A model generated the notes under the pieces. It was not told the origin of the DNA. It saw only the letters and a list, made by a program, of their open reading frames with translations, and made no database searches. Positions 27,325-62,341 of a stretch of 64,000 bases of DNA are shown piece after piece (the stretch's first letter is position 1; every line of letters begins with the position of its first letter). The position numbers and the translations under genes are program-made. This stretch comes from Scenedesmus sp. PABB004. Lineage: Eukaryota. The stretch spans positions 2,418,001 to 2,482,000 of the forward strand of contig CM026547.1 in NCBI GenBank assembly GCA_014905635.1. Reading direction: 5' to 3'.

Positions 27325-27934
27325 ATGATGATGCTGCAGCGCCAGCAGCAGCAGCGGCTGGCGCGCCGCGGCGGCGCCGCCGCGCCGCCGGCGGCCGGGC
27401 GCGCGACGCTGCACTGCACCGCGGCGGGGAACAAGACGACGGGCGGGCGCAAGACGACCAGCGGCCGCAAGACCACCAGCGGCCGCGCGGTGAGCTCGCC
27501 GGGCACGACGACGAGCGGGCGGCAGCCGGAGCGGCAGCGCGCGCCCCAGCCGCCGCCGCCGCCGCCGGCGCGGCCGGGCAAGCCGCTGTCGGCGCGGCTG
27601 GGCGACCTGCTCAACCTGCTCACGCCCCAGCAGGAGGTGCGCGCGGCGCGGCGGCGCGGCCGCCGGCGCGCGGGGCGGCTGCCGGGCGCGGCCGGTGCGC
27701 GCGCGTCAGCGCGGTGAGGCGGCGCGGCCGCCGGCGCGCGGGGCGGCCGCCGGGCGCGGCCGACGCGCGCGCGCTCGCGCGCCGCCGCCGCCGCAGGGCG
27801 ACCTGGGCGACGTGGTGATGCTGTCGCTGAGCATGTGCGTGTTTGTGCTGCTGGGCATGCAGCTCTACCGCGTGTGGTACTTCTCCAGCATGCAGCTCAG
27901 CGGCCTCCAGACGATGCTCGACATGAGCAGCTAG
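27325..27934 (+). CDS. Small single-TM protein, probably plastid-targeted
   Basis: Arg/Ala/Thr-rich N-terminus, one intron from 27637, TM segment [19 protein letters not shown]. Confidence 0.65.
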
Positions 27935-28128
27935 GGCGGTGCGGGCGGCGAGGCAAACACGCGCGGCGAGCGGCGCGTGGCAGCGCCAGGTGCGGCGTTT
28001 TGGGGCGAGGCCGCCGGCGGGCGAGGTGCGCAGCCGAGCCGTAACTGCGGGCTGCTGCCGTGCGCGCGCCCGCTCGCTCGCGCGCATCGCATCGCATCGC
28101 GCGGCCGGGGGGAAGTGGCCGTTGATCG

Positions 28129-28133
28129 TTACA
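28129..28133 (-). promoter_or_regulatory. TGTAA polyadenylation signal of RPLP1
   Basis: Canonical chlorophyte poly(A) signal about 70 nt after the stop codon. Confidence 0.6.
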
Positions 28134-28203
28134 GGGACGCAACGCCAACAGCGCATCACACGGGCGCCGCCCGCCGGGCGGCCGCCGCGCGGCAGCCAGG
28201 AGC

Positions 28204-29094
28204 TTAGTCGAACAGGGAGAAGCCCATGTCCTGCGGGGCGGGGCAGCGCAGGGCGGCGGCGGCCGCGGCGCGTAAGCAGCAGCGCGGCGGGCGGCGGCCG
28301 CGCGCGCGCCGGTGCTGTTGCTGTCGCTGCCGCCGCCGCTGCCGCTGCCGCCACCGCAGCTGCCGCCGCCGCAGCTGCCGCCGCCGAGGCTGCGCCTGCT
28401 GCCGCTCTCGCCGCCGCTGCGCCAGAAGCTGCTGCAGCTTTGCCACCGCCTGCCAGCGCGGCCGCAGCCGCGGCCGCAGCGCCGCGCCGCACCTCGTCCT
28501 CCTCGGACGGCTCCTCCTTCTTGGCCTCCGCGGGCGCGGCGCCGCCACCAGCGCCGCCAGCAGCGGGCGCGGCGGCAGCAGCGGGCGCGCCGCCGCCTGC
28601 GGGCGCAGCAGCGGGCGCGGCGGGCGCGTGAGCGGCGCCGGCGGCGGCGCGCGCGCCTGCGCCTCGCTGGCTGCCGGCGCCCGCACGCCGGCGGTGGCGG
28701 CTGCCGGCGCCACGCACGCCGGGGGCGCCGCTGCGGGCATCATGCGCCGCGGCCGGGCCCGCGCGCCGGCAGCAGCCGCCGCGCGGCCGGCAGCGCCGCG
28801 CGGCGCGGCGCGGGCGCGCACCGGCGCCGACGTTGCAGATCAGGTCCTCCACGCTCTTCTTGGCGAAGAGCTTGGCGAACAGGGCGGGCCAGTAGGGCTC
28901 CACGGTGATGCCGGCCGCCTTCACGATGGTGTTGATGTTGTCGCCCTGCGCGCCGCCCGCGCCCGGCTGAGCCCGCCGCGCCGCGCCGCGGCGCCGCGGG
29001 GCCCCCGGCTGCCGCCGTGGCGCACCGTGATCTCCAGCCCGTCATCGTGCAGGATGAGCGAGGCGTAGACGCAGGCCAGCTCGGAGGTCGACAT
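28204..29094 (-). CDS. RPLP1: 60S acidic ribosomal protein P1
   Basis: [36 protein letters not shown], Ala-rich hinge, [12 protein letters not shown]. Four exons. Confidence 0.98.
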
Positions 29095-31777: not shown

Positions 31778-31983
31778 GGTCGGGGAGTTGAGCGGCGTGT
31801 TGGGCGGTGCGAGGCCTCTGTCGTCATGTTGGAGTGCTCAGCCCTGGCGGCGGCTGCGCCCCGGCGGCGCACGACGCGACCCCGCGGCAGCTGCAGTAAC
31901 AGACCGGTCCCTCTGGCTTTCGCTCTCCACACGCGCCGCGCCGCGGCGTGCTGCGCAGCCCCGGCAGCGGCCGCCGCGGCGGC

Positions 31984-32142
31984 ATGCCGACGCTCTGCCG
32001 AATGCCCAAGGCCGCGCCAGCGCCGGCCCGCAGCGCATGGAGCTGCGAGCGATGTAGTGTCGTTAACGGGGCGGCGGCTGGGGCGCTGCGGCGGCAGCAG
32101 CGGCGGCGGCCAGCGCTGGCAGCAGCGGCGGCGGGCGGCAGA

Positions 32143-32182
<40 letters not shown>

Positions 32183-33216
32183 CCAGCAGAACCAGCAGCA
32201 GAACCAGCAGCAGCAGAGACGGCAGACGCAGCAGCACAAGGAGCAGCAGCGGCAGAGACGGCACGCAGCAGGCGTGCGAACTGCCGGCGGGGCTCACGTC
32301 GCGTGAGCAGCTGCCGCGGCACGTCGCGGTGAGCCGCCGGCGCGCGCCGCGCGCCGCGGGACGGTTGAGAGGGGAGGGAGGCACGCCCCCGCCGGCGCGC
32401 AGCCGGTGCGCCGCAGGCCGCCCGTGGCCCACCGCCGCCCGCCGCCGCGCCGCCGCGCCGCCGCCTGCCACCTCTCGCCCGCCGCCGCCGCCGCTGCCGG
32501 GGCGCGTGCAGCTCATCATGGACGGCAACTCGCGCTGGGCGGCGGCGCGGGGGCTGCCCGCGTTTGTCGGCCACGAGCGCGGCGTGGCGGCGCTGCGCCA
32601 GGCCGTGCTCGCGGCGCGGGCGTGGGGCATCCCCGCGCTCACCGTGTTTGCGCTCTCGCTGGAGAACCTGCAGCGCGAGCCGGGCGAGGTGGAGTTCCTA
32701 CTGCGCCTCTTCCGCTCCAGCCTGGCGGCGCAGCTGCCGGAGCTGCAGGCGACGGGCGTCGCGCTGGCGTTTGCCGGCGAGCTGCACCGGCTGCCGCCGG
32801 AGCTGCAGGCGCAGGCGGCCGCGTGCGTGGACGCCACGGCGGGCAACGACGGGTTGCTGCTGACCGTCGCGCTCGGCTACGGCGCGCAGCAGGACGTCGC
32901 GGCCGCGGCGCGCGCGCTCGCGGCGCAGGTGGCGCGCGGCGCGCTGGCGGTCGACGCGATCACGCCCGACCTGTTGGCGCGCCACCTCGGCTCCGCGGCC
33001 GCCACGGCGCGCGCGGGGCCGCCCGACCTGCTCATCCGCACGAGCGGCGAGCGGCGGCTGTCCAACTTCATGCTGCTGGAGTGCGCCTACACCGAGCTGG
33101 TCTTCGTCGACGACATCCACTGGCCCGACTTTGACCGCGCCGCGTTTGAGGCCGCACTGCTCGAGTACGCGCGGCGCCAGCGGCGCTACGGCCGGCGGCG
33201 AGCGGCGCCGGCGTGA
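31984..33216 (+). CDS. cis-prenyltransferase (UPPS/DHDDS family) with a Ser-rich transit-like N-terminus
   Basis: LPRHVA-LIMDGNSRWA, GH..G, TVFALSLENLQR, PDLLIRTSGERRLSNFMLLECAYTEL, WPDF, RQRRYG. Confidence 0.95.
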
Positions 33217-38325: not shown

Positions 38326-39935
38326 TCAGGGCTGGCACCCCAGGCCGTCCATGAGCGCCAGCAGGTCCTCGCCGCCGCCGCCCCCCAAAAAGGCGCCGCC
38401 GCGTCCGTCGTCGTCCAGGCCCGCCGCGACGCGCGCCGCGCGGCCGTCGGCGGCGCCGCCAAACCGGAGCTCGCGCGCGCGCGGCACCGGCGGCGCGCCG
38501 CTCGGTGCCGGCGGATCCGCCGCGTCGCCGGGCTCGCCAGAGAGGTCGAGGCGGAAGGTGTCGCCGCCCGTCGGCGGCGCGGCCACGAGCGACGCGAGCA
38601 GCCCCAGCTCCGCGGCCGCCGCGCGCCCGCCGGCCGCGGCGCTGTCGCCGGGGTACGACTGCTCGCGAGCCCGCCCGGGCTCGCTGGCGGCCGGCGCGGC
38701 CGGCGCGGCCGCGGCGCCGCCGCCGCCGCCGCCGTCCGGCTGCGGCGCGCCTGCTCCGGCGCCATCGGGAGCAGGCTGCGCGGCGTCCGGCGCCGGCGCG
38801 TCGCCCGCGCGCCGCGGCGGCGGCACCACCTGGGCGCGGTCCTTGCGGTACAGGTTGTCGCCCAGCGGCACGGGGTGGCAGAAGAACTCGGCCGCCGCCG
38901 CCTGCGCGCGGCCGGGCGCGCGCGTACGTGTGGGCCCGCGGCGCGCCCCCTCGCGACATCGTCCTGCCGGCGGCGCACGTGCACGCGGCGGCCGCGGCTC
39001 GCCGCCCCGCCCCGCCGCGCCTGCTGGCTGGCCACGTCGTGGCGCTGCTCCGCCTGCAGGCGGCCGGCGGCGTCGTAGAGGCGCACCGCGCCCACGCGCG
39101 CGCAGAGGCAGCTGGGCGCCACCAGGCGCGCCGAGTGCAGCTGGATGCCCTCCGCCAGGAACAGGCTGACCTGCGGGGGCGCACGCGCGGTCGGCGCAGC
39201 GCCAGCGCCAGCGGCGGCGGCGGCGCGCGGCGCTGGGGCGCATGGCGCGGCCGGCCCTGGCCGGGCGCACCTTGACCCGCCGGCCCTGGAAGAAGCGCGC
39301 CAGCGTGCGCCGCAGCAGGCCCAGCTCGCCCGCGGGCAGCGTGCCGTACAGCCGCACGACCGCCTCCTCCGCCGCACCCACCAGGCCGATCACGGCGCCG
39401 TCGACCGCGCCGCTGGGGCTGCAGGCGGCGAGCGCGGTCGTGAGGATCGCCTGCACCGTGCCGAGGTGCCGCAGCGTCACCTGCGGCGTGCGCGGCCGGC
39501 CGGCGCTCGCGCGTGCGTGCTGCGCCGTGCGCGCCGCGCCGTACGCGCCGTGCCGTGCCGCTGCGCCGCGCCGCGCGCGCTGTCACGCACGTTGACGATC
39601 GCGTCGTCGAGGCGCGTCGCGGCGAGCAGCTGGTACTTTGCGCCCATGGTCACGAGGTCGTAGAGCTTGCCCATGCTGCCCTCGCTGAGCCGCATGATCG
39701 ACGCGTGCGCGAGGCGGTCAAAGACCTTGCGCATGGCGGCGGGGCTGTAGAGCTCCTGCGGCACGAAGAGCCGCCCCGCCAGGGACGCGGGGTCGACCAG
39801 CGCGCGCACGATGTCGGCGAGCACGGTCGCCGCCTTGTCCTGCGCGACTCCCTGCGCCTTGAGCCGCTGCTCCAGGATGTACACCATCTCGCACCCCATG
39901 TTGAGCACCAGCCAGGGCATCGCCAGCAGCGACAT
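38326..39935 (-). CDS. OSCP1: OSCP1 (organic solute carrier partner 1), cilia-associated family
   Basis: MPWLVLNMGCEMVYILEQRLKAQ, LFVPQELYS, VFDRLAHASIMRLSEGSMGKLYDLVTMGAKYQ, FFQGRRVKVSLFL, LGDNLY. Confidence 0.93.
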
Positions 39936-40334
39936 GGCCGCACGCGGCCGCGCGGCGCGCGGGAACCGGCGCGGCCGCGCGGCGTCGGCGCAGGCGGCGC
40001 CCGCCGCGGAAGGGACGCGCTCGGGAGGGCTGGCAGGAGACGCGCACGAGCCGGGGGCGGCCGTTCGCGACCCGCCGGTGGAGGTTGACCGCCGCGCTGC
40101 TGCCGGCGGGCGCGCGAGCGAGCGAAGGGCCGGCCTGGAGCGGCCTTCCGCGACTCGAGGTGCTCGGGGAGAGCGATGCCGCAGCCCCCGTGGGCGGCGG
40201 CGGGACGTGAATGGAGGACCTGAACCGCGGCGCTCGCCAGCCGTGCTGCCCCCGCGACGTCCGTGCGATCCCACATCCGGCCCCGCCTCCCTCCCCTCCC
40301 TCCCCGGGGGGACTCCTCAGGCACGGGCGGCGCG

Positions 40335-43300
40335 ATGCGTGCCGCAGGCCACGCGCCGCGGCGGGGCCGCGCCGAGTTGCTCTGTGTCGCCGCCGCACAA
40401 CGGCCGCCGCCGCGCAGCCCGCCGCCGCGCCAGGGCCCTGGCGCGGGCCCGGGCGGCGGCCCAGCCCTGCGGCTGCCCCTGGCGCTGGAGCGGCTGGCCG
40501 AGCTGTGGCGGCGCGTGTCTCCCACTGACGCATGCGCTGAGCCGCGCGGCAGCAGCAGCCTGGGCCGGCGCGTCCGCGTCCTCGTCAACCGCTTCGCCCT
40601 GCGCCTGGGCCCCCAGTTCACCGGCGCGCACGTCTACGCCGTCAGCGTCACGCCGCGCGGCGGCGAGCCCCAGCCGGCGGCGCCCGAGCTGCGCGCGCGC
40701 GCGGTCGCGGCGGTCGCGCGCGAGCGCGGCTGGCCGGACGGCAGCTGGCAGTTTGACGCCCCCGCCGGCCGACTGTTCAGCCTCGCGCCGCTGGCGCCGC
40801 CAGACGGCGGCGCGGACGTCGCGCTGCCCGCGGCCGGCGGCGCGCCGGAGGCCGTGCTGCGCGTCACGCTGGCGCCCGACCCCGCCGCCCGCCTGCCCGC
40901 CGCGCCCAGCGGCGGGCCGGGCGACGCGGCGCCGCTGCAGGCGCTCGGCCTGCTCCTGCGCGCCAGCCTGTGCGCGGCGCTGCCGCAGGCGATCCCGGCC
41001 GCGCGCGTGATGCTGCTGCCGCCCGGCAGCGCGCCGCGGCCGGCGGCGCCGCCGGCGTCAACCAGCCGCGGCGGCCACGGCGGCCGGGGCGGCGGCAGCA
41101 GGGGCGGGAGGGGGGGCCGCGGCCCGCCGGGGGGCGGCCGCGGCGGCGCCCCGGGCGACGCGCTGGGCCCGCTGCAGCTGTGGACGGCGCTCGCGGCGGG
41201 CGCCAAGCCGACGGAGATGGGGTGGACGCTGCAGCTCGACACCAGCCGCGGCGCCGTGCTCCCGGCCGGCGAGCTGGCGGAGCTGCTCGTGGGCGGCGCT
41301 GGCGGCGCGGCCTCGCCCGCGGAGCTGTGCGGCAGCCGGGCGAAGCTGGCGGCCGCGGAGAGCCTGGTCAAGGGTGCCAAGGTGCGTGCGCGCGCGGGCG
41401 GGGGCCGGGGGGGGGGGGGCACGACCGGCGGCGCCGCGCGTGTTGACCGCGCCGCCGCCACTGCCGTCCCCGCCGCCACGCGCCCGCACGCCAGGTGCAG
41501 GTGCGCTACCCCACCGGGGCGCAGTCGCGCGTGGTGCGCGGCCTCGACGCCCGCCCGCCCGCGCGCTACACCTTCAAGCCGCCCGACGGCTCCACCACGA
41601 CCGTGGCGGCGCACTGGGCCGCGGCGCACGGCGTGACGCTCGCGCACGGGCACGACTGGCCGTGCGTCATGGTCAGCGCGCGGGCGGCGATCCCGCTGGA
41701 GCTCTGCGCCGTCGCCGCGCCGCAGCCGCGCCGCGCGCTGAACGAGCGGCAGACCGCGGAGCTCATCAAGACGGCGGCTCTGCCGCCAGAGGTGCGACTG
41801 CGGGCGATCCGCGCCATCGTGGCGGGCCAGCTCTCGGGTTTCCGCCTGCGCCTGCTGCAGGCCTGGGGCGTGTCCATCAGCCCAGAGCCGCTCGAGGTGC
41901 GCGAGCGCGGGCGGGGGAGCCGCTGCCCGTGCGGCCGCGCGGCGCGCGGCTGACGCCGGCGCCGCCGCCTCTGCTGCCGCCAACGCGCGGGCCAGGTGCC
42001 CGGTCGCGTCCTGCCGGACGCGCTGCTCGAGTGCGGCGGCGGCACGTGCGCGGAGCCGAGCAACCAGGGGGCGTGGCGGCCGCCGGCGCGCGCGGTCACG
42101 CCGGCGCGTCTGCAGCGCTGGGTGGTGATCAACCTCGGGGGCGCGGCGCTGCGGCCCGGCGTCGACGTGCTGCTCGCGCAGCTGGTCGCGCAGCTGCGCG
42201 CGGCCGGCGGCTCCGTGGCGCCGCCGGAGCACGTTGCCGGCGGCGGCGGCGGCAGGGCCGGCGGCGCGCGCAGCGCGCTCGAGGCGGCCGCCGCGGCGGC
42301 GGGCGGGCGGCCGCAGCTGGTGCTGGTGGTGCTGCCGGAGCGGAGCTCGGCGCAGTACGGCGAGCTCAAGGGCGCCGCCGCGGCGCTGGGGCTCGTCACC
42401 CAGGTCGTCGTCGCGCCGCGCGTCGGCCTCGCGCCGGGGCGCGTCGAGCTGCGGCCCGCCGTCGCCGCCAACCTCGCGCTCAAGGTCACCGCCAAGGCGG
42501 GCGGCGCGAGCTGGCAGCTGCCGGGCGGCCCGCGCGCGTGGGCGGGCGGGCTGTGCGAGGCGCCGCTCCAGGTGCTGGGCATCGACGTCGGCCACGCCGG
42601 CGCCGGCGGCGGGCCCCGCCGGCGGCCGTCGGTCGCGGCGGTGGTCGGCTCGCTGGACGCGGGCGCGAGCCGCTACGCCGCGGCGGTCAGCGAGCAGAGC
42701 GGGGGCGAGGAGCTCGTGCTCGGCCTGGCCGACATGGCCGCGCAGGTCATGGCCGCGCACGCGGCCGCCAATGGCGGCGCGCCGCCCCGCTCTCTGCTGG
42801 TCTTCCGCGACGGCGTCAGCGAGAGCCGGTACGCCGCGGTCATCCGCGAGGAGGTGGCCGCTCTGCGCGCCGCGGCCGCGGCGGTCGCGCCGCGCGGCGC
42901 CGCGCCGCCCAAGGTGCGCCGCGGCGCGCTGCCCGGCGGCGGCCGCGACGCGGTCGGCGCGCGCGTGAGTTTCCACGCGCCCGCGCCCGCCGCCCCGACA
43001 CGGCCGCCCGCCCCGCCGCCGCCGCCGCCGCCAGCTGACGTTTGTGGTGGTCTCCAGGTCGCACGGCCTGCGCCTGCTGCCGCACCCCGACGACCCGAGC
43101 GCGTGCGGGCCCGACCGCGGCGGCAACGTGCCGCCGGGCACGGTCGTGGACCGCGGCGTGACGGCGCCGCTCGCGGCCGAGTTCTACCTCAACTGCCACG
43201 CCGGCATCCAGGGCACCAACCGCCCTGCCCGGTTCAACGTGCTCGTCGACGAGATCGGCCTCTCGCAAGACGGCCTCCAGCTCCTCTGCTTCCACCTCGC

Positions 43301-43502
43301 CAGCACGCACGCCGCGTGCGCCCGCACGATCGCGGTGCCCGCCGCGGTGCGCTACGCCGACAAGGCCGCCACGCTCGGCGCGTTCACCGGCGGCGTCGGC
43401 GCGTGGCGCGAGGTGCAGGCGCCCGCGCCGGGCGTGCCGGCGCGTGCGTGGCGCCCGCTGCAGGTCAGTGCCGACCTGGCAGGCGCGGCCTGGTTTTTGT
43501 GA
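40335..43502 (+). CDS. AGO: Divergent eukaryotic Argonaute (N-L1-PAZ-L2-MID-PIWI), about 944 aa
   Basis: Exons 40335-41381, 41495-41896, 41996-42913, 43035-43502. Motifs GRRVRVLVNRF, IPLELC, YGELK..VTQ, NLALKVTAKAGG, LGIDVGH, PSVAAVVGSLD, VFRDGVSE, GNVPPGTVVD, HAGIQGTNRP, VPAAVRYADKAA. A possible extra 5' exon starts at ATG 40211. Confidence 0.95.
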
Positions 43503-43803
43503 GAGACGGCTCGTGCGGTGGTGGCTCGTGCGGCGGCGGTGGCTCGTGCGCCGGTGCGGCGGCGGCTGGTTGCAGGGCGCCGGGCGGGGCGGCGGCGGCG
43601 GCGCGGTCGGTCGGTCGGGCGGCGGTGCAGCAGCATGCCAGGCCCTGGCCCCCCGCGGCGATGTTGCTTGGTGCGCGCCCGGTGCTGTGGCTCCCACACG
43701 CAGACGGAGATCGCGCCTGGAGTTGAGGAAATTGGGTTGCCCCTCGCGCTCCCCGGCCGGCCGCACCCTCCGCATCCACCCCGCCCCTCCAATCCCGGCC
43801 GCC

Positions 43804-45487
43804 ATGCAGGCCGCGCAGCGCGCCCTCGCGCGCACGCCGGGCCCTAGAGACGGTCGCGCTGCGCCGCCAGCGGCGGCGCGGCCGGCGGCGGCCGCGCGGC
43901 GGCGCGGCAGCAGCAGCGGCAGCACCGGCGCGGCGGCCCGCCCGCGGCCCGTGCTGGCGCGCAGCCAGGCGCCCGAGGAGGACGCGGCTGTGGCGAGCCA
44001 GGCGCCCGTGGATGACGCGGCTGTGACGCAGTTCGACGTGGACAGCGGCAAGGCCGAGCAGCTGGCCGGCGTGGGGGAGCTGGGGCCGCGCGAGGACGAC
44101 GTGCTGCCAGACTCCCTCGCCGATGCGATCACGGACGTGAGGCAGCGAGCGGCAGCGAGCCGCTGCCGTTCAGGATGAGCGCCGCAGCAGCGGCGGTCCG
44201 CCGCTCACCGCCGCCCGCGCCCCGCGCCCCGCGCCCCGCGCCCCGCGCCCCGCGCCCGCGCGCAGGCCGCCGCCGCGACGGCGAGCGCCATCAACAGCGG
44301 CGTGCTGCGCTGCCAGGTCGAGATCCTGCTGCCAGAGTTCTGGGGTGCGCAGCGCGCGGCGGCACCCGGCCCCGCGCGCGCACGCGCCTCGGGCCTCGCC
44401 GACTGAAGGGCGCCGACGCTCACGCCCCTGCCTCCTGCCCCTGCCCCTCCTCCTCCCGCCCTCCCGCCCTCCTGCCCTCCTCCCTCCGCCAGACCCCATC
44501 AGCGGGCCCATCTTCCCCAACAAGGGCGACCAGGAGCGCTTCTGGCGCATGACGCGGCGCTTCGTGGAGGCGCTCGGCGCGGCGCTCGGCGCGGGCGGCG
44601 GCGGCGCCGACGGCGGCGGCGGCGGCGGCGTGAAGGCGATCTACCCCGACGCGGGCGTGGCTGCGATGCTGAGCTACCAGTGGGGCGACCGCAGCTTTGC
44701 GATCGACTCGCTCAACGCGCGGCGCCCGGTCAGCCCCGACGACGAGCTCATCGTGCTCTGCTGCCCAGACCCGCCCGGCGCGGAGGAGGCGCAGCGCGCG
44801 GTGCGCCAGGTCGGCGAGCAGGACGAGGCCGCGGGCAGCATGGAGCGCCCGATCGTGCTCTTCAACCAGCGCCTCTCCAGGCGCGTGCCGCGTGCTGCGC
44901 GCCGCGCCCCGGTCACGCGCGGCACGCGCGGCACCCCCCTCCCCCCGCCCCTTTCCTGGCTCACGCCGCGCCGCCGCGTCGCCCCCGGCCGACGCGCAGC
45001 GGCGACGTCGGCATCGGGCTCAACGCGCGGCGGCTGCGCAGCACCTTCCTGCAGCGCTTCAACGTCACCTACTCGCTCCGCCCCGTGGGCGAGGTGGGCA
45101 CCGTGTTCCGGCGCTACCCGGGCCTCTGGAAGGTCTTCGTGGAGGAGCCGGCGCTGCCGGGGCGGTGCGGCGGCGCAGGGTGCAGGGGCGCGAGCGGGGG
45201 CGGGGCGCGGTCACTGCGCGCCCGCGCGGCGGCGCGCACACCCCTCCAAACGTGCTCGCCGCCGCCGCCGCCGCCGCGCCCGCAGGTACCGGCTCGCGGC
45301 GGAGCAGCCCAACCGCCCCGCGGGCGAGGCGCTGGACCTGATCATCATGACCGCGCTCGACCCGGACGCCGCGGCGGCCGCGGCCGCGGGCGGGGGCGGG
45401 GCCGCCGCCGCGCCCAAGGGCCTGCTGGAGAGCCTGGGCAGCACGATGGCGTCGATGCAGCGCTTCATGCGGAGCCTGTCGCAGTGA
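43804..45487 (+). CDS. DUF1995 plastid protein (At5g27560-like rather than LPA3)
   Basis: RCQVEILLPEFW, IYPDAGVAAML, RPIVLFNQRLSSGDVGIGLNARRLR, YSLRP, VFRRYPGLWKVF. Transit-like N-terminus. Confidence 0.85.
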
Positions 45488-46472
45488 GCGGCGGCGGTGC
45501 GCGCGGACGCGGGGGCGACGAGAGGCGGACGCGGTCCCCCGGGCACGAGTGGAACTGCTCGTTTACCAGCCCTCCACCCCCCGCCGTTGGGTCCTTATTC
45601 GACGCGCCCAGCCGTTTCGCGCGCGCAAACAGCCCAGCCCAGTCGTGCGCGCCATGGTGAGCAGCAGCCCGTCGCCCAGCGCCGGGCGTCCGCGCAGCAG
45701 CACAGCAGCACAGTCACGCGTGCCGCCGTCGCCGCGCCCGGCCTGCCTGGCGCCAACCAACCAATCATTGGAGTCCGAGGCCCCTGCTGCACGCGCGGCT
45801 AGATTCGAAATATAGGGGGCGGCGTGGAATGCGTGCTGCAAGCCAGAGGGGGCAGAGTGCTCTGCGCCGCTCTGCAGGGCGTGGTGGTGGTGGTGGTGGT
45901 GACGACGACGCCGCGTTCAGGCAGCGGCGCGGGCCAGAGCAGAGCGTGGTCCCTCAAACCTGTTGGTGGACGGCCGGCCGGCGGCTGCAGCCGGCGGCGG
46001 CGGGGCGTTGGGGCGCGCGCGAGGCGCGCCGAGGAGGGGCACACGGCGTGGGGGCGACGCATGCGAGCTGCACACCCCCCGACTGCACGCGCCCGCGCCG
46101 CGGCGCGCGACGCAACGAGAGAGGACAAAAGGACAACTGACGAGTCAAAAGTGGCGCCGACGGGCCAGCAACCATTCATTTGGGCCGAGAAGGAGTGGGC
46201 GGGCGGCGCGGCGCCGCGGGGCGCGGCGCCCCGGGGCGCCGCGCCGCCCGCCAAGGGATGGCTTGGAACGAGGCGTGCTGCCGCCTCGGCGGGCGCGCAG
46301 CGTCTGTGTTCACGCACGCCGGCGCGCCGCCGCGAGCCGGGCGCTTCCACGCGCGCCGCTCTCTGTGCTTGACCGTCGCCATCGCCCCCGCAAACCCCGC
46401 GTGCAGGCGGCGTGGGCCCGCGCTGGCGCGGGCACCCCCGAGCAGTGCGTCCCGGCAGCGATGCATCCCCCC

Positions 46473-49917: not shown

Positions 49918-52900
49918 TCACACCGAGATCGCGCCCCAGCGCGCCTCGCCGCCGCCGGCGGCGGCCTCGGCGGCCTTGCGCGCCGCGACGTGCGCGCGCG
50001 TGGCCTCCCAGTACGCGGCGACGCCGGGCTCGACGACGCCGCCGCCGCCGCCGCTCGCGCCGTCGCCGCCCGCGGCGAGCTCGCTCGCGACGAGCTCCAG
50101 CAGCTGCTGCACCGCGCCCGCGCCGAGGCCGTCGAGGCCGGCGCCGTAGTAGTAGAGGTAGCGGTTGGCGATGTCGACGTACAGCGGCGTCGCCGACGCG
50201 GCGCCGCCGCCGGCGCCGGGCCCGGCGCCGCCGCCGGCGCCGGCGCCGGCGGCCGCGCGGCCCGCGCGCGGCGCGGCCGCGCACTGCTGCTTCGCCGCCG
50301 CCGCGACCTTGAGCCCGCGGCGCAGCCCCGCCATGACCTTGCCGCCGTCGCGCACCGCGCCGGGCGCGCCGCCGGGGCGCGGCTCCTGCCACGCGAGGTG
50401 GCTCGCCGCGCACGCGGCGAGGCACTGGTCGCGGCGCTTGAGCAGGCGCGCGGCGTAGCTCGTCACGCTCTGCGCGAGCGCGTCGCGGTTCTCGGGCCCA
50501 AACACGTAGCAGCGGTGCAGCGTGCCCACGATCGCCTGCAGCGCGGTGACCTTGGCGCGCGAGTCCGCCACGCTCTCCTCGTACAGCGTCAGCGCCTGCG
50601 TCGGACCCGGCGGCGGCGGCGGCAGCCCGCGCGCGCGCGCGCGGTGAGCGGGTCGGGGGCTGCGAGGGCCCCCACGCGCCAGCGGCGCGCAGCCGCGCGG
50701 GCGGCGCGGCGCGCGCGCGGCCCTCCACCCCCCGCCCAGGCGGCGCGCGCCTGCTCGAAGAACTCGTACGCCAGCAGCTCCAGCCCCGCCTCCTCGCTGC
50801 ACACGTGCGCGCACGCGAGCAGCAGCCGCAGCGCCTGCAGCGGCGCGGGCACCTCGGCGAGCGCGAGCGCGACCTCCAGCAGCCACTGCAGCGCCGCCTC
50901 GGCCGTGATGCCCTCGCCGCCGCCCGCCGCCGGCGCGGCCGGCGCGTCGGCGGCGGGCTCGCCGTCGGCGCCGCCGTCGGCGGGCCCGTCGGCGGCGCCC
51001 TCGGGCGGCGCGGTGAGGCGGCGCAGCGCCTTGAGCCCGCAGAACGCGAGCGCGGGCAGCGTGTGCCGCATGCGCGCGGGGCCGCCGGCCTCGAGATGCT
51101 TGCGCGCGGCGCGCAGGATGGCAAACTGCATGCCCAGGTCGGGGCTGGTGAGCTGGTGCAGCATGCGCGCGACCATGTCCTGCTCCTCCTCAATGTCCTG
51201 CAAGCGGCGCGGCGGCGGCGCGGCACGGCCGGGGTCGGTGGCGCGCGGCGGCGCGCGCGCGGGGTCGACCCAGCGCGGCGCCGCGCTGCGGCGCCGACGC
51301 CGCGCGGGTGGCCCACCTCGTCGTCCATGTCCTCGTCGCCCTCGCCCTCCTCGACCAGGGGCGCGATGAACTTGAACAGCATCTCCACGCAACCCAGGTC
51401 GCCCACGCCCGCGCCCTGAGACGCGCGCACGCGCACGCAGGCGGCACGCCGTCGGCGCAGGGCGCGCGCGTTCGCGGGGCCGCGCGTGCGCCGGCGCGCC
51501 GCGCCGCGCGGCGCGTGCTGCGGCGCGCCTGTGCGAGCACCGCGTTGACGACGCGCAGCGCCATGTCCTTGTGCGTGCGCCGCGAGAGCAGGCCCATGAG
51601 CGGGGGAAACTGGTCCAGCCCCAGCACCGTCACCGCGTCGCGCCGCGACAGCGGGCTGCTCAGCAGCGCCACGAGCGCCTTCTCAGCCTTGGCGTCGCCG
51701 CCCAGGCCCCTGCGCGGTGCGGCGCGGCGCGGCGCGGCGCGGCGCGGCGCGGCGCGGCGCGGCGCGGGGCGCGGGGAGTGAGCGCGTGCGCGCGCCAGCG
51801 CGCGGGCGCCCCGCCGCCGCTCCCCCGCGTGGCGCGCGCGCCGCGCCGCGGCGCGGCACTCGCTTTCCGACCAGGCCGCGGTGGCAGGCGCCGAGCACGC
51901 GGTTGACGTTGGGCAGCGCGTCGGGGTGCACGCCCTCGGTGAAGGCCATGAGCGCGACGTACATCTCCACCAGGCTCGCGGGCGGGATGTCGCCGTGCAG
52001 CTCCGCGACCTTGCTGATCGACTCGACAAACTTCTCAAACGCGTGCCCCTCCAGCAGGCGCGACACGACGGCCGGGTCGCTCGCCGCGTAGCTGCGCGGC
52101 GCGGCGGCGCGCGCGGCGCTCGGCCGCCGAGCCGGCGGCGGCGGCGGCGCGTGCGGCGGCGGCGCGCGTGCTCACCGCGCGAGGCGGTCCATGAGGCTGG
52201 CCATGACGGCGTGCAGCCGCACGCCGCTCTGGAGCTCCGGCAGCGCGCCGAGCAGCGCGTCGAGGCTGCTGAGGTGGAAGGCGTCGGGGAAGCCCTGGAT
52301 GACGCACTGCATGAGGTACGCCTGCGCGAGCTCGTCCTTGCACGACACCACCTGCTCCAGGAGGCGCGGCAGCACGCTGCCCACGTACAGCTCAAACGTG
52401 AGCCCGTCGAGCTGGCTGATGTACGTCAGGTTCTTGCCCACCAGGTCCTGGGGCGGGCCGCGCCGGGGAGGGCGGCGCTTGCGGCGCGGCGCGGCGCGGC
52501 GCGGCGCGGCGCGGCGCGGTGCGCACGCCCGGCGCCCGCCCGCCCGCCCTCCCTGCCCACCCCGCGCGCGCACCTGCAGCTGCTGGCGCTCCTTCTCGCG
52601 CCTCTCGCGGTCGCGCGGGCCGCCCTGGTGCTGCATGCGCACCCAGAGCTTGTTCATCTCGATGAAGTTGGTCAGCAGGAAGTCAACGGCGTCGTGGATG
52701 CCGCCCGGCGCGGCGCCCGGCGGCGCCGCCGCACCCGACGCGGCCGTCGCCGGCGCGGCGGCGGCGTCCCCCGCGGCGGCGCCCGCGGCGGCGTCCTGCA
52801 GCAGCCCCCGGCTGCGCTGGCAGAGGTAGCTGCGCAGGAAGAGGCCGCGCGTGGGGTGCTGCACGCCCTTGGTCATCTCCACCAGGTCGCGCAGCACCTC

Positions 52901-53672
52901 GGGGCTGTTGGCGGTGCCGGACTTGATGTAGAGGCAGCCCACCGCGACCATCAGGTAGCTGCGCGCCCGCGGGCAGCGAGCCCCAGGGGGGGGGGGTGAG
53001 GCGGCCGCCAGCGCCCGCGCCCGGCGCCGCGGCCGGCCGCGCAGCGCAGCGCGCGCGCCGGCGCGCTCACAGGCGCGGCAGCACGTTGCCCGCGTGCTGC
53101 ACCAGCTCGTACAGCTCCGCCAGCGTGCGGCCCTTGCTCTGCTCGTCCGCAAAGTAGGCCTGCGTCGCGCGGCACGCCGCGTGACGGCGGGCGCGCGTGC
53201 TCGGCCGATGCCGCCCCGCCGCCGCGACGCCGCCGAGCGCTGCTGGCGCGCCGGGGGCGCGCGGGGGTGGGGCCCTGTCGCGTGGCGCGTCGGCGGCGTC
53301 GCGCGTCGCACCTCGAGGTTGCCGAGCTCATCAAAGACCTGCATGTACAGCTCGTAGTACTTCTGGGGCGACAGGAACGACGTCCGCAGCTCGCCCAGCA
53401 TCGCCGCCGAGTAGCGCAGCGCCTCGCGCAGGTTATCCTCGTCCTGCAGCCGGACGCGCGGCGGCAGCGGCGGTCGCACGGCACGAGGCGGCGCTCGGCG
53501 GCGGCGCGCGGCCCGCGAGCAGCAGCAGCGCCGGCGCGCCCCTCTCACAACTGCCGCCCCCGCGCGCGCAGCCCGCCCCACGCCGCCGCACCATGGCCTT
53601 GCGCATGAAGTAGGCGTTCTTCTTCACCGAGTTGGAGGCCTCCTTGAGGAACTTGTCCTGCTCGTCCTCCAT
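49918..53672 (-). CDS. VPS35: Retromer subunit VPS35
   Basis: EQDKFLKEA, MLGELRTSFLSPQKYYELYM, LYELVQHAGNVLPRL-YL, KGVQHPTRGLFLRSYL, NFIEMNKLWVRMQHQG, DLVGKNL, AYEFFEQA. Confidence 0.97.
51716..51766. repeat. (GCGCG)n pentanucleotide microsatellite in a VPS35 intron
   Basis: About ten tandem gcgcg units. Confidence 0.8.
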
Positions 53673-54334: not shown

Positions 54335-57173
54335 CTAGGTGTGGGGCTGCTTCACGCCCAGGATGCCGTGCTTGAGCGTGCTGGACGCCTTGAGCACGTC
54401 CTCGTTGCCCTGCCGCATCATCGCCGCAAACTCCTCGTAGTCGATGCGTCCGTCCTTGTCCTTGTCCTGCGCGCAGCAGCGGCCGCGGCGGCGGCGGCGC
54501 GGTGGGCGCGGCGACGACGCGGCGGGCGCGGCGGCGCGCCGAGGCCGCCGCGGCGCGCCGCGGCCGCCCCCGGCGCGCGCGCGCGCGCGTGCGCTGGCGC
54601 GCGCGAGCGGGCGCACCACTTCGGCCAGGATGTCCTTGATGTGCGCCGCGATCGTGCTCGCGTCGCCGTGCTGCTTCAGCCCCTGCTCCAGCTCCTCCAC
54701 CGTGATGTGGCCGCTGCCGTCCGTGTCAAAGTGCTGCGCGGCCGAGCGGCGGCGGCGGGCGTCGCGCGGCGCGCCACGGGCGTGCAAGCGCTGCGGCTGC
54801 CGTGCCGTCGCCGCGCGCTGCGGCTGCCGTGCCGTCGCCGCGCGCTGCGCTGCGCCGTGCCGGCCGTGCTGCCGGCCGTGCTGCGCCGCGCGCGCGCCTG
54901 GAAGGCCTTGTACAGTGCGTCCTCGCGCTCCAGCTTGCCCAGGTGCATCGTGGCGGCCAGGAACTCCTCATAGTCGACCTTGCCGTCGCCGTTGACGTCC
55001 GCGTTCTCCATGATGCGCACCAGCTCCGCCTCGGGGATCTTGCTGCCCTTGGCGCGCAGCCCGTCGCGCATCTCGTCGACCGTGATCGTGCCGCTGCGCG
55101 GCGGCGGCGCGGCGGCGCGCGCGCGGGCTCGGGCGCGCGCCCAGGCGCGGGCGCAGGCTGCGGCAGCCGCCCGGCGGCGCCGCGCGGCCGCCACGCGAGC
55201 AGCCGCGGCCGGCCCCGCGCCCGCGGCGGCGGCGGCGCCCCGCGGCGCGCCTGCCGTCCTTGTCCATGGCGGCGAACATCTCCTTGAGGCCGGTGATCTC
55301 CTCGAGCGGCAGGTTGGCGGCGATGACCTTGAGCGCCTCCTTCTTGAGCTTGTTCATCGCGGCAAAGCCCTTGATGCGGCTCAGCACCTCGGGCTCGATC
55401 ACGTTGTCACCCGCGACGCCGTCGGGGCGCACCCACTCGTGCGCGAGCACGTCGCTCGCGGTCGCGCGCTTCGCGGGGTCGCGCACCAGCATGCGCCGCA
55501 CGCAGTCCTGCGCGGGCGCACGCGCGCGCGCACGAGGGCGGCGCGGTGGGCGCGGCGCATGCGGCGACTGCTGCTGCGGCCACGGACGCTTCCGCTGCTG
55601 CTACTGCTGCTGCGCCGCCGCCCGCTGCTGCGCCCGCTGCTGCGCCCGCTGCCTCCGCCGCCGCCGCCGCTCTCGCCGCACCTTGGCGGGCTCCGAGACC
55701 TTGGGCCAGGGGTCGGTCTCAAAGTCGAGCTTGTTGCGCAGCACGGCGTCAAAGATCTGCTGCTCGTTGTCGCCGTAAAAGGGCGGCATGCCGCTGAGCA
55801 GGATGTAGAGCATCACGCCGCAGCTCCAGATGTCCGCCTCCTTGCCGTAGTTGCGGCGCAGCACCTGCCGCGCGCGGCGGCGGCGCCGCCAGTCAGCGCG
55901 CCGCGCCGCGCCGCCGCCGCCGGCCGCGCGCGCGCGCACCTCTGGCGCGACGTAGTAGGCGCTGCCGACGATGTCCCTGAACGACTGCGCCTCCTTGAAG
56001 AAGGCGCTGAGCCCAAAGTCGGTCGCCTTGAGCACCGCGTCGTCGGTCTTGTCGCTGAGCAGGAAGTTCTCGGGCTTGAGGTCGCGGTGGATGACGTTCA
56101 TGGCGTGGCAGTGCTGCACCACCTGCGCGCGTGCCCGCGGCGCGGCGCGGCGCGGCACGGGCGAGGCAGGCGGGCGGGGCGGGGCGGGCAGGGGGGCGGG
56201 CGGGCGGGGTGAGCGCGCCGGCGCGCGGGGCGCGCGCGGCCCCTGCCGCGGGCGCTGCTGCCGCCGCTCTGCTGCCGCCGCTCTGCCGCCGCCGCCCGCC
56301 GCCCGCCCGCCGGGCCCCTGGCTCCCGCGCCCCCCGCGCCGCGCGCCTTGACGATGGTGCGGATCGCCGTCGCCGCGTCCTTCTCGGTGTACTTGCCGCG
56401 CTGCACGATGCGGTCAAAGAGCTCGCCGCCGAGGCAGACCTCCATGACGATGTGCACGTGGTGCTTGTCCTCGTACGCGCCGCGCATCTGCACGACGTGC
56501 GGGTGGCCCGCGAGGTGGTGCATGATCTGGACCTCGCGCTGCACGTCGGCGACGTCCTCCGGCGTCGCGAGCTTGCGCTTGGAGATCGACTTGCACGCGA
56601 GCACCTCGCCCGTCTTCTTGTCCGTCACCATGCGCGTCGTCCCAAACTGGCCCTTGCCCAGCGTCTTGCCAAAGTCATAGCTGCGCGCACGCGCGCGCGC
56701 GCGGGCGCGGATGGGAGGGGCGCCGCGGCGCGGCGGGGCGCGGGGCGGGGGCGGCGGCGGCCGCAGACCGCGCTGCAGAGGCGACAGCCGGCCGGCCGCG
56801 GGCTGCGGGGCCGCGCGGCACGCGCGCCGGCGGGAGCAGCACCGCGCCCGTGCGCCGCCGAGTGCCGCGCCGCGGCGGCAACGCTCACATCGTTTTGACG
56901 TCGGGCGTCTCCTTGCCCAGCACGTTGCACTGCAGCGTCTTGGCGCCCGCGGCGGTCTGCGGGCGCCGGCCCGGCGTGAGCAGCAGCGCCCCAGATGCCG
57001 GCCCCGCCACCGCCCAGCCCCGCGCGCCGGCCCGGCCTGGCCGGCGCCGGCGGCTGTGACAGGCCGCTCCCAACGCAACGCACCCCGCTGCCGCCCCCGG
57101 CGGCCCCGTTCGGCGCCGCGGCTGCCGCGCCCGCGGTGCTGGCGGTCGCGGGCTTGGAGCTGCACAGCCCCAT
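54335..57173 (-). CDS. CDPK: Calcium-dependent protein kinase with four EF-hands
   Basis: MGLCSSK acylation motif, [31 protein letters not shown], junction [11 protein letters not shown]-hands [48 protein letters not shown]. Confidence 0.98.
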
Positions 57174-57567
57174 CGCGTCCCCTCGCGTTGCCGGGCGCCT
57201 CTGCGGGCCCGCTGGACGCGGGAGCAGCTGCCGCGGCCGACCCTGGTGATGCGACCGCTGGCGACCGCTGAGGGGCGGGCGAGCCGCGCGGAGTGCACCA
57301 CGAGCGCCGGGCGGGCGCGGCGAGGAACAGCGGCGGCCCGCGCCGCGCCCGCCCGGCGAACCGCGCGCCGCGGGTGACGACCGACGCGCAACTGTTGCCG
57401 GCGCCGCCTCCGCCGCCCCCCCCCCGAGGTCAGCGGGGGCCCCCGACCGGCCCTGCAAGCACGCCCCTCACACGGTGTGATCGCCGCCCCGCCGCCGCGC
57501 CGCGCTGCACGCGCGCCCGCCCGCCGCGCGCCGCTCGCGCCCGCGCGGCGCGCGCGCCGCGCTCAGC

Positions 57568-62068: not shown

Positions 62069-62341
62069 ACGCTCGCGCGGCGCGGCGGGCGGCGGGCAGC
62101 GCGCGGGTTGGCGGCGGTTGCGGCGGCGATCGCGCGCGGCAGCGGCCGTGTGCTGTCGCTCGTGCTGCCGGCACCGGGAGTGGGCGCGGCGGCGCGAGCG
62201 GTTGGGGCGCCGAGAACCCGCCGGCCGGTGCCCCTGCTGCTCGGCGGCCCTCGCAAGTGGCCCACACTGCGCCCGCCCGTCCGCACCGTGAGGCTGCCCT
62301 GTGACCGTCGCGCCGCGCGCCGCGTCCAGCGCCCGCGTGGA

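What the first reader, a model, noticed from the sequence alone, without database searches (positions are those of the whole stretch)
40335..43502. Highly divergent Argonaute with an intact DEDD slicer tetrad
Seen: all AGO domains are present. The catalytic positions read D (GIDVGH), E (EQSGGEELV), D (FRDGVSE) and D (RYADKAA), and the MID 5'-phosphate residues Y-K-Q-K are kept. Many usual motifs have drifted: VTAKAGG for INAKLGG, VSRSHGLR for VQKRHHTR, STHAAC for YTYARC, C-terminal AWFL. It has only 3-4 introns over 3.2 kb, fewer than most neighbours. Known: terminal D instead of H occurs in plant AGO2/3-type and algal AGOs. Inference: a fast-evolving, slicer-competent paralog, possibly a specialised defence or silencing clade.
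Basis: partly seen in the sequence, partly recalled or inferred. Interest (0 to 1): 0.75.

Follow-up and report, generated by a model that had tools for sequence, protein, structure and literature searches.

The report
Algal Argonaute of the AGO1 clade
This is a real, intact Argonaute gene of a very GC-rich green alga; it is divergent because it belongs to an already described divergent algal Argonaute group, so it is a useful new member and not a new kind of protein.

Summary
Window 40335-43502 (+) encodes a 944-aa Argonaute in 4 exons with 3 GT-AG introns. Alignment to human AGO2/3 and Arabidopsis AGO10 puts D680, E722, D755 and D898 on the catalytic tetrad and Y604, K608, Q619, K650 on the 5'-phosphate pocket. 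An AlphaFold model (pLDDT 82.7) matches human AGO1 over its whole length.

The gene is already in GenBank as 'AGO3 [Scenedesmus sp. PABB004]'. That model wrongly fuses it to the downstream DUF1995 gene.

It is divergent: it lies about twice as far from canonical green-algal AGOs as they lie from each other, also after recoding that removes GC-driven bias. It is not an orphan. With a Monoraphidium protein and a metagenome protein it is sister to the Chlamydomonas AGO1 clade (bootstrap 99, SH-aLRT 96; recoded 95/76). In Chlamydomonas, AGO1 binds Dicer-independent small RNAs longer than 26 nt (PMC10226591).

DEDD is ordinary for Chlorophyceae. Traits of this subgroup are an RGG-rich loop inside linker L1 and loss of the arginine matching human R812. 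Expression and paralog number could not be tested. I rate it a new member of a known kind, of modest interest.

The parts
40335..41381 (+). Exon 1 (residues 1-349): disordered N-terminal extension, N domain, L1 and the start of PAZ
   Evidence: ORF and splice model. The public model P0001 uses the same start. AF2 pLDDT is below 50 for residues 1-48 and high from about residue 70.
41028..41174 (+). RGG-rich insertion (residues 232-280) in a loop of linker L1
   Evidence: Coordinates. pLDDT is below 50 for residues 243-271. Only P0002 (Monoraphidium) of the 64 other rows fills these columns with a comparable RGG run, with 29 residues. In-frame GC3 is 0.98.
41382..41494 (+). Intron 1 (113 nt, GT-AG)
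   Evidence: The junction KGAK|VQVRYP is also used in the public model.
41495..41896 (+). Exon 2 (residues 350-483): PAZ and L2
   Evidence: Pfam PAZ 25.8 bits. The model matches full-length AGO structures.
41897..41995 (+). Intron 2 (99 nt, GT-AG)
   Evidence: The junction LEV|PGRVLPDA matches P0267 (VVPGRILPDA).
41996..42913 (+). Exon 3 (residues 484-789): MID and the first half of PIWI. It carries Y604, K608, Q619, K646 and K650, and the catalytic D680 (42584-42586), E722 (42710-42712) and D755 (42809-42811).
42914..43034 (+). Intron 3 (121 nt, GT-AG). The public model uses a later donor (intron 42965-43034, 70 nt), which adds 17 residues.
   Evidence: With the early donor, AAPPK|LTFVVVS lines up with P0015 (YRPKVTFVVVS). 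Only 4 of 64 other rows have 5 or more residues in the extra columns, and pLDDT there is 55. No RNA data were available to decide between the donors.
43035..43502 (+). Exon 4 (residues 790-944 plus the TGA stop): second half of PIWI, with the fourth catalytic residue D898 (43359-43361), L903 at the position of human R812 (43374-43376), and the C-terminus ...LAGAAWFL
   Evidence: The C-terminus matches P0002 (LAGSMWFL), P0267 (LAGRVWFV) and P0015 (MAGKMWFV).

Best explanation
Window 40335-43502 is an intact nuclear gene of Scenedesmus sp. PABB004. It encodes a full-length AGO-clade Argonaute with the domain order N-L1-PAZ-L2-MID-PIWI. It belongs to the divergent chlorophycean 'AGO1 clade', whose studied member is Chlamydomonas reinhardtii AGO1 (Cre02.g141050). 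Within that clade it forms a Sphaeropleales-type subgroup with a Monoraphidium minutum protein and unnamed metagenome proteins.

Shown here: the fold, the domain order, a complete acidic tetrad (D680, E722, D755, D898), a largely canonical 5'-phosphate pocket, and the placement in the tree.

Inferred: the protein binds a 5'-phosphorylated small RNA guide, with the 5' end in the MID/PIWI pocket and the 3' end in PAZ. It pairs the guide with target RNA and can cut the target at the RNase-H-like PIWI site. By analogy with Cr-AGO1, its guides may be long (over 26 nt) and Dicer-independent, derived from repeats or tRNAs, as opposed to miRNA-type guides. The RGG-rich L1 loop may play the part that GR-rich N-terminal extensions play in other AGOs, namely RNA contact or arginine-methylation docking.
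For: Identity: the third exon is 100% identical to GenBank 'AGO3 [Scenedesmus sp. PABB004]'.

Family: Piwi scores 95 and 108.6 bits. phmmer gives human AGO2/3 at 1e-20 to 1e-22 and AtAGO10 at 1e-21, against PIWI-clade proteins at 1e-6 to 1e-11.

Fold: the AF2 model has pLDDT 82.7 and pTM 0.84. The best Foldseek match is human AGO1 4kre_A (E 2.9e-56, TM 0.81 normalised to the target, 894 aligned columns). AtAGO10 gives TM 0.79 and Siwi 0.67.

Residues: the tetrad and pocket are as listed. The first and third tetrad positions are kept in all 12 subgroup relatives whose sequence covers them. The fourth is D in P0267 and P0015 and H in P0002.

Tree (54 rows, 465 columns, LG+C20+F+G4 PMSF): window + P0267 100/99; adding P0002 100/99; adding P0105 (Edaphochlamys KAG2499777, named in the paper's AGO1 clade), P0292-P0294 (three Chlamydomonas species) and P0296 gives 99/96. 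The same 8-row clade appears after Dayhoff-6 recoding (UFBoot 95, SH-aLRT 76). In a 181-row FastTree, which lacked P0292-P0294 and P0296, the window groups with P0267, P0002 and P0105 (91).

Alternative placement: forcing the trio together with 8 canonical Sphaeropleales AGOs costs 35 lnL, p-AU 0.033.

Rare shared states: R two residues before the fourth catalytic position in 5 of 65 rows, and S in place of R in the KRH motif in 5 of 65 rows. All of these rows lie in this clade.

Literature (passages read): AGO1 and AGO2/3 form different clades that may have split in an ancestor of Chlorophyceae, and AGO1 binds Dicer-independent sRNAs over 26 nt (PMC10226591, abstract and passages). Cr-AGO1 is 35% identical to Cr-AGO2/3 and has the tetrad DDDD (PMC6668577).
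Against: The window protein, P0002, P0267 and P0105 all have an amino-acid make-up unlike the rest of the alignment. Both subgroups sit on long internal branches, so long-branch or compositional attraction is not excluded.

SH-aLRT falls to 76 after recoding. The AU p-value of 0.033 is marginal, and the group tested was chosen after the tree had been seen. Signature columns shared with the Chlamydomonas AGO1 group number 6, against 0 to 4 for seven control groups, which is a weak margin.

Some Cr-AGO1 traits are not shared. The tetrad is DEDD, not DDDD. The GR-rich stretch is internal, not N-terminal. No Dicer gene lies near the AGO in this window, whereas the Chlamydomonas gene identifiers Cre02.g141000 (DCL1) and Cre02.g141050 (AGO1) suggest that those two genes are neighbours.

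L replaces the arginine matching human R812, so 5'-phosphate binding may differ.

An intact tetrad does not prove slicing; from recall, some human AGOs with complete or nearly complete tetrads are poor slicers. There are no expression data and no small-RNA data.
Confidence: 0.7

Rival explanations
1. It is a recent, fast-evolving duplicate of the canonical Sphaeropleales AGO. On this reading its grouping with Chlamydomonas AGO1 is an artefact of long branches and shared GC-driven composition.
For: Composition is flagged as deviant for the window protein, P0002, P0267 and P0105. After recoding, SH-aLRT for the joint clade is only 76. The AU p-value is 0.033 and post hoc. The signature count is 6, against up to 4 for unrelated groups.
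Against: Support is 99/96 under a site-heterogeneous model. UFBoot is 95 after Dayhoff-6 recoding, which merges the main GC-driven exchanges. No signature column is shared with the 8 canonical Sphaeropleales AGOs. Monoraphidium minutum has both a canonical AGO (P0224) and a member of this subgroup (P0002), so the split predates that species.
Confidence: 0.15
2. It is a guide-binding Argonaute that does not slice, acting by recruiting other factors despite its acidic tetrad.
For: Many motifs around the active site have drifted. The arginine matching human R812 is lost. From recall, a tetrad alone does not predict slicing in human AGOs.
Against: All four tetrad positions are acidic and align unambiguously. 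The first and third positions are kept in all 12 subgroup relatives whose sequence covers them. Such retention across relatives only 40-53% identical suggests selection on catalysis.
Confidence: 0.2
3. It is an unexpressed or decaying gene copy.
For: No expression evidence could be obtained.
Against: The frame is open for 944 codons across 4 exons with canonical splice sites. Codon-position GC is strongly periodic. Catalytic, pocket and C-terminal residues are conserved. The predicted fold is confident.
Confidence: 0.04

Closest known systems
Chlamydomonas reinhardtii AGO1 (Cre02.g141050) and its clade (Edaphochlamys KAG2499777, C. incerta, C. schloesseri)
   Same: It is the sister group in all three trees built here. 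Both are about equally distant from canonical algal AGOs (2.98 and 3.45). They share rare states: R two residues before the fourth catalytic residue, and S in the KRH motif. Pfam finds only a subset of the AGO models: PAZ and Piwi in this gene, and PAZ, Piwi and in some members ArgoN in the clade. The fourth tetrad position is D in Cr-AGO1, as it is here.
   Different: The glutamate finger is E here and D in the Chlamydomonas group (PMC6668577 gives DDDD). K646 is kept here but is S or G there. The R812 equivalent is L here and R there. The GR/RGG stretch is an internal L1 loop here and N-terminal there. The Chlamydomonas group has a long insert after the first catalytic D that is absent here. 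Identity is only about 31-33% over the full length.
Chlamydomonas AGO2/AGO3 and canonical Sphaeropleales AGOs (Raphidocelis, Tetradesmus, Chromochloris, Monoraphidium P0224)
   Same: The domain order is the same. Cr-AGO2 shows the same DEDD tetrad (PMC6668577). The 5'-phosphate residues Y, K, Q and K are kept.
   Different: They form separate clades. Identity is 26-33%. Canonical proteins hit ArgoL1, ArgoL2, ArgoMid and ArgoN in the precomputed Pfam lists; this one does not.
Human AGO1/AGO2 and Arabidopsis AGO10 (solved structures)
   Same: The whole-length fold matches, with TM 0.77-0.81 normalised to the target. The tetrad and most pocket residues align.
   Different: Sequence identity in the structural alignments is 22-24%. 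The fourth tetrad residue is D instead of H. The RGG loop is extra. The R812 equivalent is lost.
Plant AGO2/AGO3
   Same: An acidic fourth residue.
   Different: Membership was not examined: no named plant AGO2/3/7 sequence was in my trees. The three streptophyte AGOs included grouped far from the window protein.

Membership tests
Eukaryotic AGO-clade Argonaute | PIWI domain with an RNase-H-like fold | tested here: met
   Pfam Piwi scores 95.0 and 108.6 bits against a gathering score of 28.9.
Eukaryotic AGO-clade Argonaute | PAZ domain | tested here: inconclusive
   Pfam PAZ scores 25.8 bits, below the gathering score of 28.8. The fold model nevertheless aligns to full-length AGOs over about 894 columns, PAZ region included.
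Eukaryotic AGO-clade Argonaute | Full N-L1-PAZ-L2-MID-PIWI architecture | tested here: met
   AF2 pLDDT 82.7, pTM 0.84. Foldseek 4kre_A E 2.9e-56, TM 0.81 normalised to the target.
Eukaryotic AGO-clade Argonaute | Closer to the AGO clade than to the PIWI clade | tested here: met
   phmmer gives AGO chains at 1e-20 to 1e-22 and PIWI chains at 1e-6 to 1e-11. Foldseek TM is 0.77-0.81 for human AGO1-4 and AtAGO10 guide complexes and 0.67-0.68 for Siwi and MILI.
Eukaryotic AGO-clade Argonaute | Catalytic tetrad D-E-D-H/D | tested here: met
   D680, E722, D755 and D898.
Eukaryotic AGO-clade Argonaute | 5'-phosphate pocket (Y, K, Q, K, K and the R812 equivalent) | tested here: inconclusive
   Five of six positions are kept. 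The R812 equivalent is L, against R in 60 of 65 rows.
Eukaryotic AGO-clade Argonaute | Binds small RNA guides; slices targets | not testable with these tools
   This needs immunoprecipitation with sRNA sequencing and an in vitro cleavage assay.
Chlorophycean AGO1 clade (PMC10226591, Suppl. Fig. S1) | Monophyly with Cre02.g141050 and KAG2499777 to the exclusion of the AGO2/3-type | tested here: met
   99/96. 95/76 after recoding. 91 with P0105 in FastTree. A long-branch caveat applies.
Chlorophycean AGO1 clade (PMC10226591, Suppl. Fig. S1) | DDDD tetrad, as reported for Cr-AGO1 (PMC6668577) | tested here: not met
   The glutamate finger is E722 here and D in P0105 and P0292-P0296. This is a trait of the Volvocales subgroup and not obviously a defining one.
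Chlorophycean AGO1 clade (PMC10226591, Suppl. Fig. S1) | Absence of tryptophan-binding pockets (PMC6668577) | not tested
   I had no retrievable human AGO2 sequence with pocket numbering to map.
Chlorophycean AGO1 clade (PMC10226591, Suppl. Fig. S1) | Association with Dicer-independent sRNAs over 26 nt | not testable with these tools
   No RNA run was listed.
Plant AGO2/3/7 clade | Phylogenetic grouping with named AGO2/3/7 proteins | not tested
   No named member was in the data set. The three streptophyte AGOs present did not group with the window protein.

The most novel reading that the evidence does not exclude
The AGO1 clade is an ancient, Chlorophyceae-wide second RNAi arm that carries long, Dicer-independent, piRNA-like guides. 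Its Sphaeropleales branch has rebuilt the protein in three ways: it moved the arginine/glycine docking module from the N-terminus into an internal L1 loop, it dropped the arginine matching human R812, and it kept a true glutamate finger. Together these changes would imply a different way of holding the guide 5' end and of recruiting partners such as Tudor-type readers of methyl-arginine.
Probability: 0.15. Interest if true: 0.55.

Novelty: new member of a known kind. Interest (0 to 1): 0.3.

Why it matters
The published AGO phylogeny (PMC10226591, Suppl. Fig. S1, text of the figure read) places only Volvocales proteins in the AGO1 clade. It places the Sphaeropleales proteins it sampled (Chromochloris, Raphidocelis) on the AGO2/3 side. 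A Scenedesmus and a Monoraphidium member would support the authors' suggestion that the two AGO types split before the Chlorophyceae radiated. They would also give a second lineage in which to ask whether long Dicer-independent small RNAs are an old feature.

In practice, the GenBank model of this gene should be corrected. It should lose the fusion to DUF1995, regain the native C-terminus AWFL, and probably use the earlier donor for intron 3. For RNAi-based engineering of Scenedesmus strains it is useful to know which AGO type is present.

Tried and rejected
- Whole-genome search for AGO paralogs: no genome is held for this window, so paralogs could not be counted. A word-based protein search with the Cr-AGO2 PIWI region listed 120 of 517 hits. 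None of those listed was from Scenedesmus sp. PABB004. This is weak evidence only.
- Expression: no RNA holder was listed for the gene.
- Earlier scan notes: none for this genome and none for the search words.
- Dicer or RdRP linkage, as in Chlamydomonas DCL1-AGO1: Pfam on all 366 stop-to-stop ORFs of 120 aa or more in the window found none. Short exons could have been missed.
- Naming the metagenome relatives: three cluster look-ups gave no organism for any subgroup fragment.
- Literature: searches for 'Argonaute' + 'Sphaeropleales' (1 paper, a DNA-methylation review by title and abstract start, not opened), 'Argonaute' + 'Scenedesmus' + 'small RNA' (11 papers; none of the 10 listed concerns this clade by title or abstract start), and 'Scenedesmus sp. 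PABB004' (9 papers; none on RNAi by title or abstract start) found no description of this gene. PMC13738206 holds none of my six terms.
- Rejected reading, an RGG stretch that is a retained intron: it is in frame, has GC3 0.98, and is matched by an RGG run at the same loop in P0002.
- Rejected reading, the public 1335-aa fusion model: the native stop is preceded by a C-terminus conserved in three relatives.
Full report
**What is there.** The window is extremely GC-rich (0.72-0.84 in 500-nt windows around the gene), so all six frames stay open for long stretches: there are 366 stop-to-stop ORFs of 120 aa or more in 64 kb. Inspecting the overlaps shows three GT-AG introns. Joining exons 40335-41381, 41495-41896, 41996-42913 and 43035-43502 gives a single frame of 944 codons ending in TGA. 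The exons have the coding signature expected in such a genome: GC3 is 0.95-0.98 against GC2 of 0.56-0.69.

**Is it an Argonaute with the stated residues?** Yes.
- Pfam finds Piwi on the two C-terminal pieces (95.0 and 108.6 bits) and PAZ just under its threshold (25.8 against 28.8 bits). It finds nothing on the N-terminal piece.
- phmmer against PDB sequences matches 32 distinct chains for exon 3 and 38 for exon 4. Human AGO1-4 and Arabidopsis AGO10 score 1e-19 to 1e-22, and PIWI-clade proteins score 1e-6 to 1e-11.
- The printed alignments place GIDVGH on GADVTH, the second E of GGEELV on the E of RQEII, FRDGVSE on YRDGVSE, and the D of RYADKAA on the H of YYAHLVA.
- In a 65-row alignment of full-length AGOs, the window has D680, E722, D755 and D at the fourth site. 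It also has Y604, K608, Q619, K646 and K650 (window coordinates).
- The one departure is L at the position matching human R812, which is R in 60 of 65 rows.

**Fold.** I predicted the structure from that alignment. That row therefore carries the public model's 17 extra residues and lacks the last 12 residues. The model has mean pLDDT 82.7 and pTM 0.84. The only low-confidence parts are residues 1-48, 61-65, 243-271, about 791-800, and the truncated tail. Foldseek against the PDB gives human AGO1 4kre_A at E 2.9e-56, TM 0.81 normalised to the target, over 894 alignment columns. AtAGO10 gives 0.79 and silkworm Siwi 0.67. All AGO domains are therefore present, although Pfam misses the N, L1, L2 and MID models.

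**Whose gene is it?** Exon 3 is 100% identical to GenBank 'AGO3 [Scenedesmus sp. PABB004]', a 1335-aa model whose precomputed domains are PAZ, DUF1995 and Piwi. Comparing that model with mine shows two differences.
- The public model uses a later donor for intron 3, which adds VRRGALPGGGRDAVGAR. Only 4 of 64 other AGOs have 5 or more residues in those columns, and pLDDT there is 55. With the earlier donor the junction AAPPK|LTFVVVS lines up with YRPKVTFVVVS of the closest relative, P0015.
- The public model splices out the stop codon and runs into the neighbouring DUF1995 gene (Pfam hits at 44141-45657). The native end ...LAGAAWFL* matches LAGSMWFL (P0002), LAGRVWFV (P0267) and MAGKMWFV (P0015).

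The choice of intron-3 donor still needs RNA data.

**How divergent is it, and what does it belong to?** An exhaustive HMMER search of 1.84 billion cluster representatives with exon 3 found 2640 proteins at E up to 0.001 but only 5 at E up to 1e-30. The best of these are 40-57% identical and mostly fragments. Of the 148 representatives I compared with nine reference AGOs by BLASTP, 15 matched the window protein or its Monoraphidium relative best. The other best matches were Phycomyces 103, Chlorella 17, Selaginella 8, Tetradesmus 3 and Cr-AGO2 3. The only named near relative is a Monoraphidium minutum protein, P0002, at 41% identity.

I built trees on the MID-PIWI region.
- A FastTree of 181 rows put the window with P0267 (99), then P0002 (93), then P0105 (91). 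Rows shorter than 500 aa, or not covering most of the query, had been dropped.
- P0105 is Edaphochlamys debaryana KAG2499777.1. The text of Suppl. Fig. S1 of PMC10226591 labels this protein as part of the 'AGO1 clade' together with Cre02.g141050.
- A search with P0105 brought in the Chlamydomonas reinhardtii, C. incerta and C. schloesseri proteins of that group.
- In a curated set of 54 rows and 465 columns under LG+C20+F+G4 (PMSF), support is: window + P0267 100/99; adding P0002 100/99; adding the five Chlamydomonas-type AGO1 proteins 99/96.
- The program flagged only P0096 and P0024 as long end branches. It did flag the window protein, P0002, P0267 and P0105 for deviant composition.

**Control for GC bias.** I recoded the same alignment into the six Dayhoff classes, which merge K/R, I/V/L/M and A/G/P/S/T. 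I then ran GTRX+FO+G4. The same 8-row clade returns with UFBoot 95 and SH-aLRT 76. Holding the trio together with eight canonical Sphaeropleales AGOs costs 35 log-likelihood units, p-AU 0.033. This test is marginal, and I chose the group after seeing the tree. Columns where the trio shares a residue that is rare elsewhere number 6 with the Chlamydomonas AGO1 group, 0 with the canonical Sphaeropleales AGOs, and 1-4 with five other groups. That supports the grouping but is weak.

Mean patristic distances are:
- window to canonical algal AGOs: 3.45
- canonical to canonical: 1.54
- canonical to fungi, oomycetes and plants: 2.52
- after recoding: 1.17, 0.56 and 0.87.

The divergence is therefore real and not only compositional. 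It is a shared property of a known clade, since the Chlamydomonas AGO1 group lies 2.98 from the canonical AGOs.

**What is known about that clade.** From PMC10226591 I read the abstract, passages and the text of Suppl. Fig. S1. [quoted passage not shown] AGO1 binds Dicer-independent sRNAs over 26 nt from moderately repetitive clusters, and these rise under N or S deprivation. In that figure the AGO1 clade holds only Volvocales proteins, and the Sphaeropleales proteins sampled lie on the other side.

From PMC6668577 I read passages. Cr-AGO1 is 35% identical to Cr-AGO2/3. Cr-AGO2/3 have the tetrad DEDD and Cr-AGO1 has DDDD. Cr-AGO1 lacks the tryptophan pockets and has a short N-terminal GR stretch. 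My alignment agrees: the glutamate-finger column is D in P0105, P0292-P0294 and P0296, and the fourth position is D in 16 of 65 rows. The DEDD tetrad that headed the finding is therefore ordinary for Chlorophyceae.

**What is particular to this subgroup.**
- It keeps a true glutamate finger: E in the window and in P0002, and E in P0267, P0269 and P0015 as read from the sequences.
- The arginine matching human R812 is absent: L in the window and A in P0002. By my reading of the sequences it is V in P0267 and I in P0015.
- A 30-50-residue RGG-rich insertion sits in a loop of L1. Only P0002 of the 64 other rows shares it, and it is disordered in the model. Cr-AGO1 carries its GR stretch at the N-terminus (PMC6668577).
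- The C-terminus is WF[LV].

**Surroundings.** Pfam on all 366 long ORFs shows ordinary housekeeping neighbours:
- Mago nashi
- a MutS homolog
- DUF502
- OMP decarboxylase
- ribosomal P protein
- a cis-prenyltransferase
- OSCP1, head to head with the AGO
- DUF1995
- Vps35
- a kinase with EF hands
- a semialdehyde dehydrogenase

No Dicer, RdRP or transposon domain was found. There is no sign here of the DCL1-AGO1 neighbourhood that the Chlamydomonas gene identifiers suggest.

**Mechanism.** Three things are shown: the AGO fold, the acidic tetrad and most of the 5'-phosphate pocket. The rest is inferred from established Argonaute biochemistry. A 5'-phosphorylated guide is anchored in the MID/PIWI pocket and in PAZ. 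The target pairs with the guide. The PIWI site then cuts the target opposite guide positions 10-11. By clade membership alone I infer that the guides may be long and Dicer-independent, as for Cr-AGO1. The RGG loop as an RNA-contact or methyl-arginine docking element, and a modified grip on the guide 5' end because of L903, are speculative.

**Limits.**
- No genome is held, so the paralog count is unknown.
- No RNA run was listed.
- The trees contain no named plant AGO2/3/7, no C. eustigma AGO1-clade protein and no PIWI outgroup.
- The root is not inferred.
- The structure was predicted on the public model's sequence.
- The supplement of PMC10226591 was seen as extracted text, not as the figure itself.

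**Verdict.** The gene is a new, Sphaeropleales-type member of the known chlorophycean AGO1 clade. It is already present in GenBank under a flawed model. Interest is modest.

Noticed in passing
window 43476-45657 (+): The GenBank model P0001 (1335 aa) fuses the AGO to the downstream DUF1995 gene by splicing out the AGO stop codon. The DUF1995 Pfam hits lie in ORFs 44141-45484 and 44407-45657.
   Followed up: partly
window 39480-40316 (-): An OSCP1 gene (Pfam Oscp1, 118.5 bits) lies head to head with the AGO. By my reading of the ORF translation, its first exon starts a few hundred bases upstream of the AGO ATG, which suggests a shared bidirectional promoter region.
   Followed up: no
P0194 (Tetradesmus obliquus A0A383VYD8, 1294 aa): Read by eye, this AGO paralog of a related alga appears to have lost catalytic residues...FGLALAPP... 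where GADVTH is expected, YRAASEEGQ for YRDGVSEGQ, and YYAQLAA for YYAHLAA. It also carries long poly-Q and poly-A inserts. It groups with the canonical Sphaeropleales AGOs.
   Followed up: no
P0294 / P0295 (C. reinhardtii XP_001694840 / XP_001694841): These two older Chlamydomonas AGO1 gene models differ from each other and from the C. schloesseri ortholog around the first catalytic aspartate. P0294 has a gap at that column. This looks like a gene-model problem, not a biological difference.
   Followed up: no
whole window: GC is 0.72-0.84 in 500-nt windows (sampled at 36-48 kb), and GC3 in the AGO exons is 0.95-0.98. All six frames stay open, with 366 ORFs of 120 aa or more in 64 kb, so ORF length alone is no evidence for a gene here.
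   Followed up: yes
window 874-2600 (+), 2623-7967 (-), 10285-12087 (+), 18993-19950 (+), 27623-29041 (-), 31900-33213 (+), 49921-53623 (-), 54338-57429 (-), 62305-64000 (+): Other genes recognised by Pfam, in order: Mago nashi, a MutS homolog (domains I, III and V), DUF502, OMP decarboxylase, 60S acidic ribosomal protein, a cis-prenyltransferase, Vps35, a protein kinase with EF hands (CDPK-like), and a semialdehyde dehydrogenase. No RNAi-related gene other than the AGO was found.
   Followed up: partly
P0009/P0267, P0010/P0269, P0015 and about ten shorter fragments (metagenome and Logan assemblies): About 15 distinct 50%-identity clusters of unnamed algal proteins match this AGO or its Monoraphidium relative best. 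The subgroup is therefore widespread in environmental data, but the organisms are not named.
   Followed up: partly
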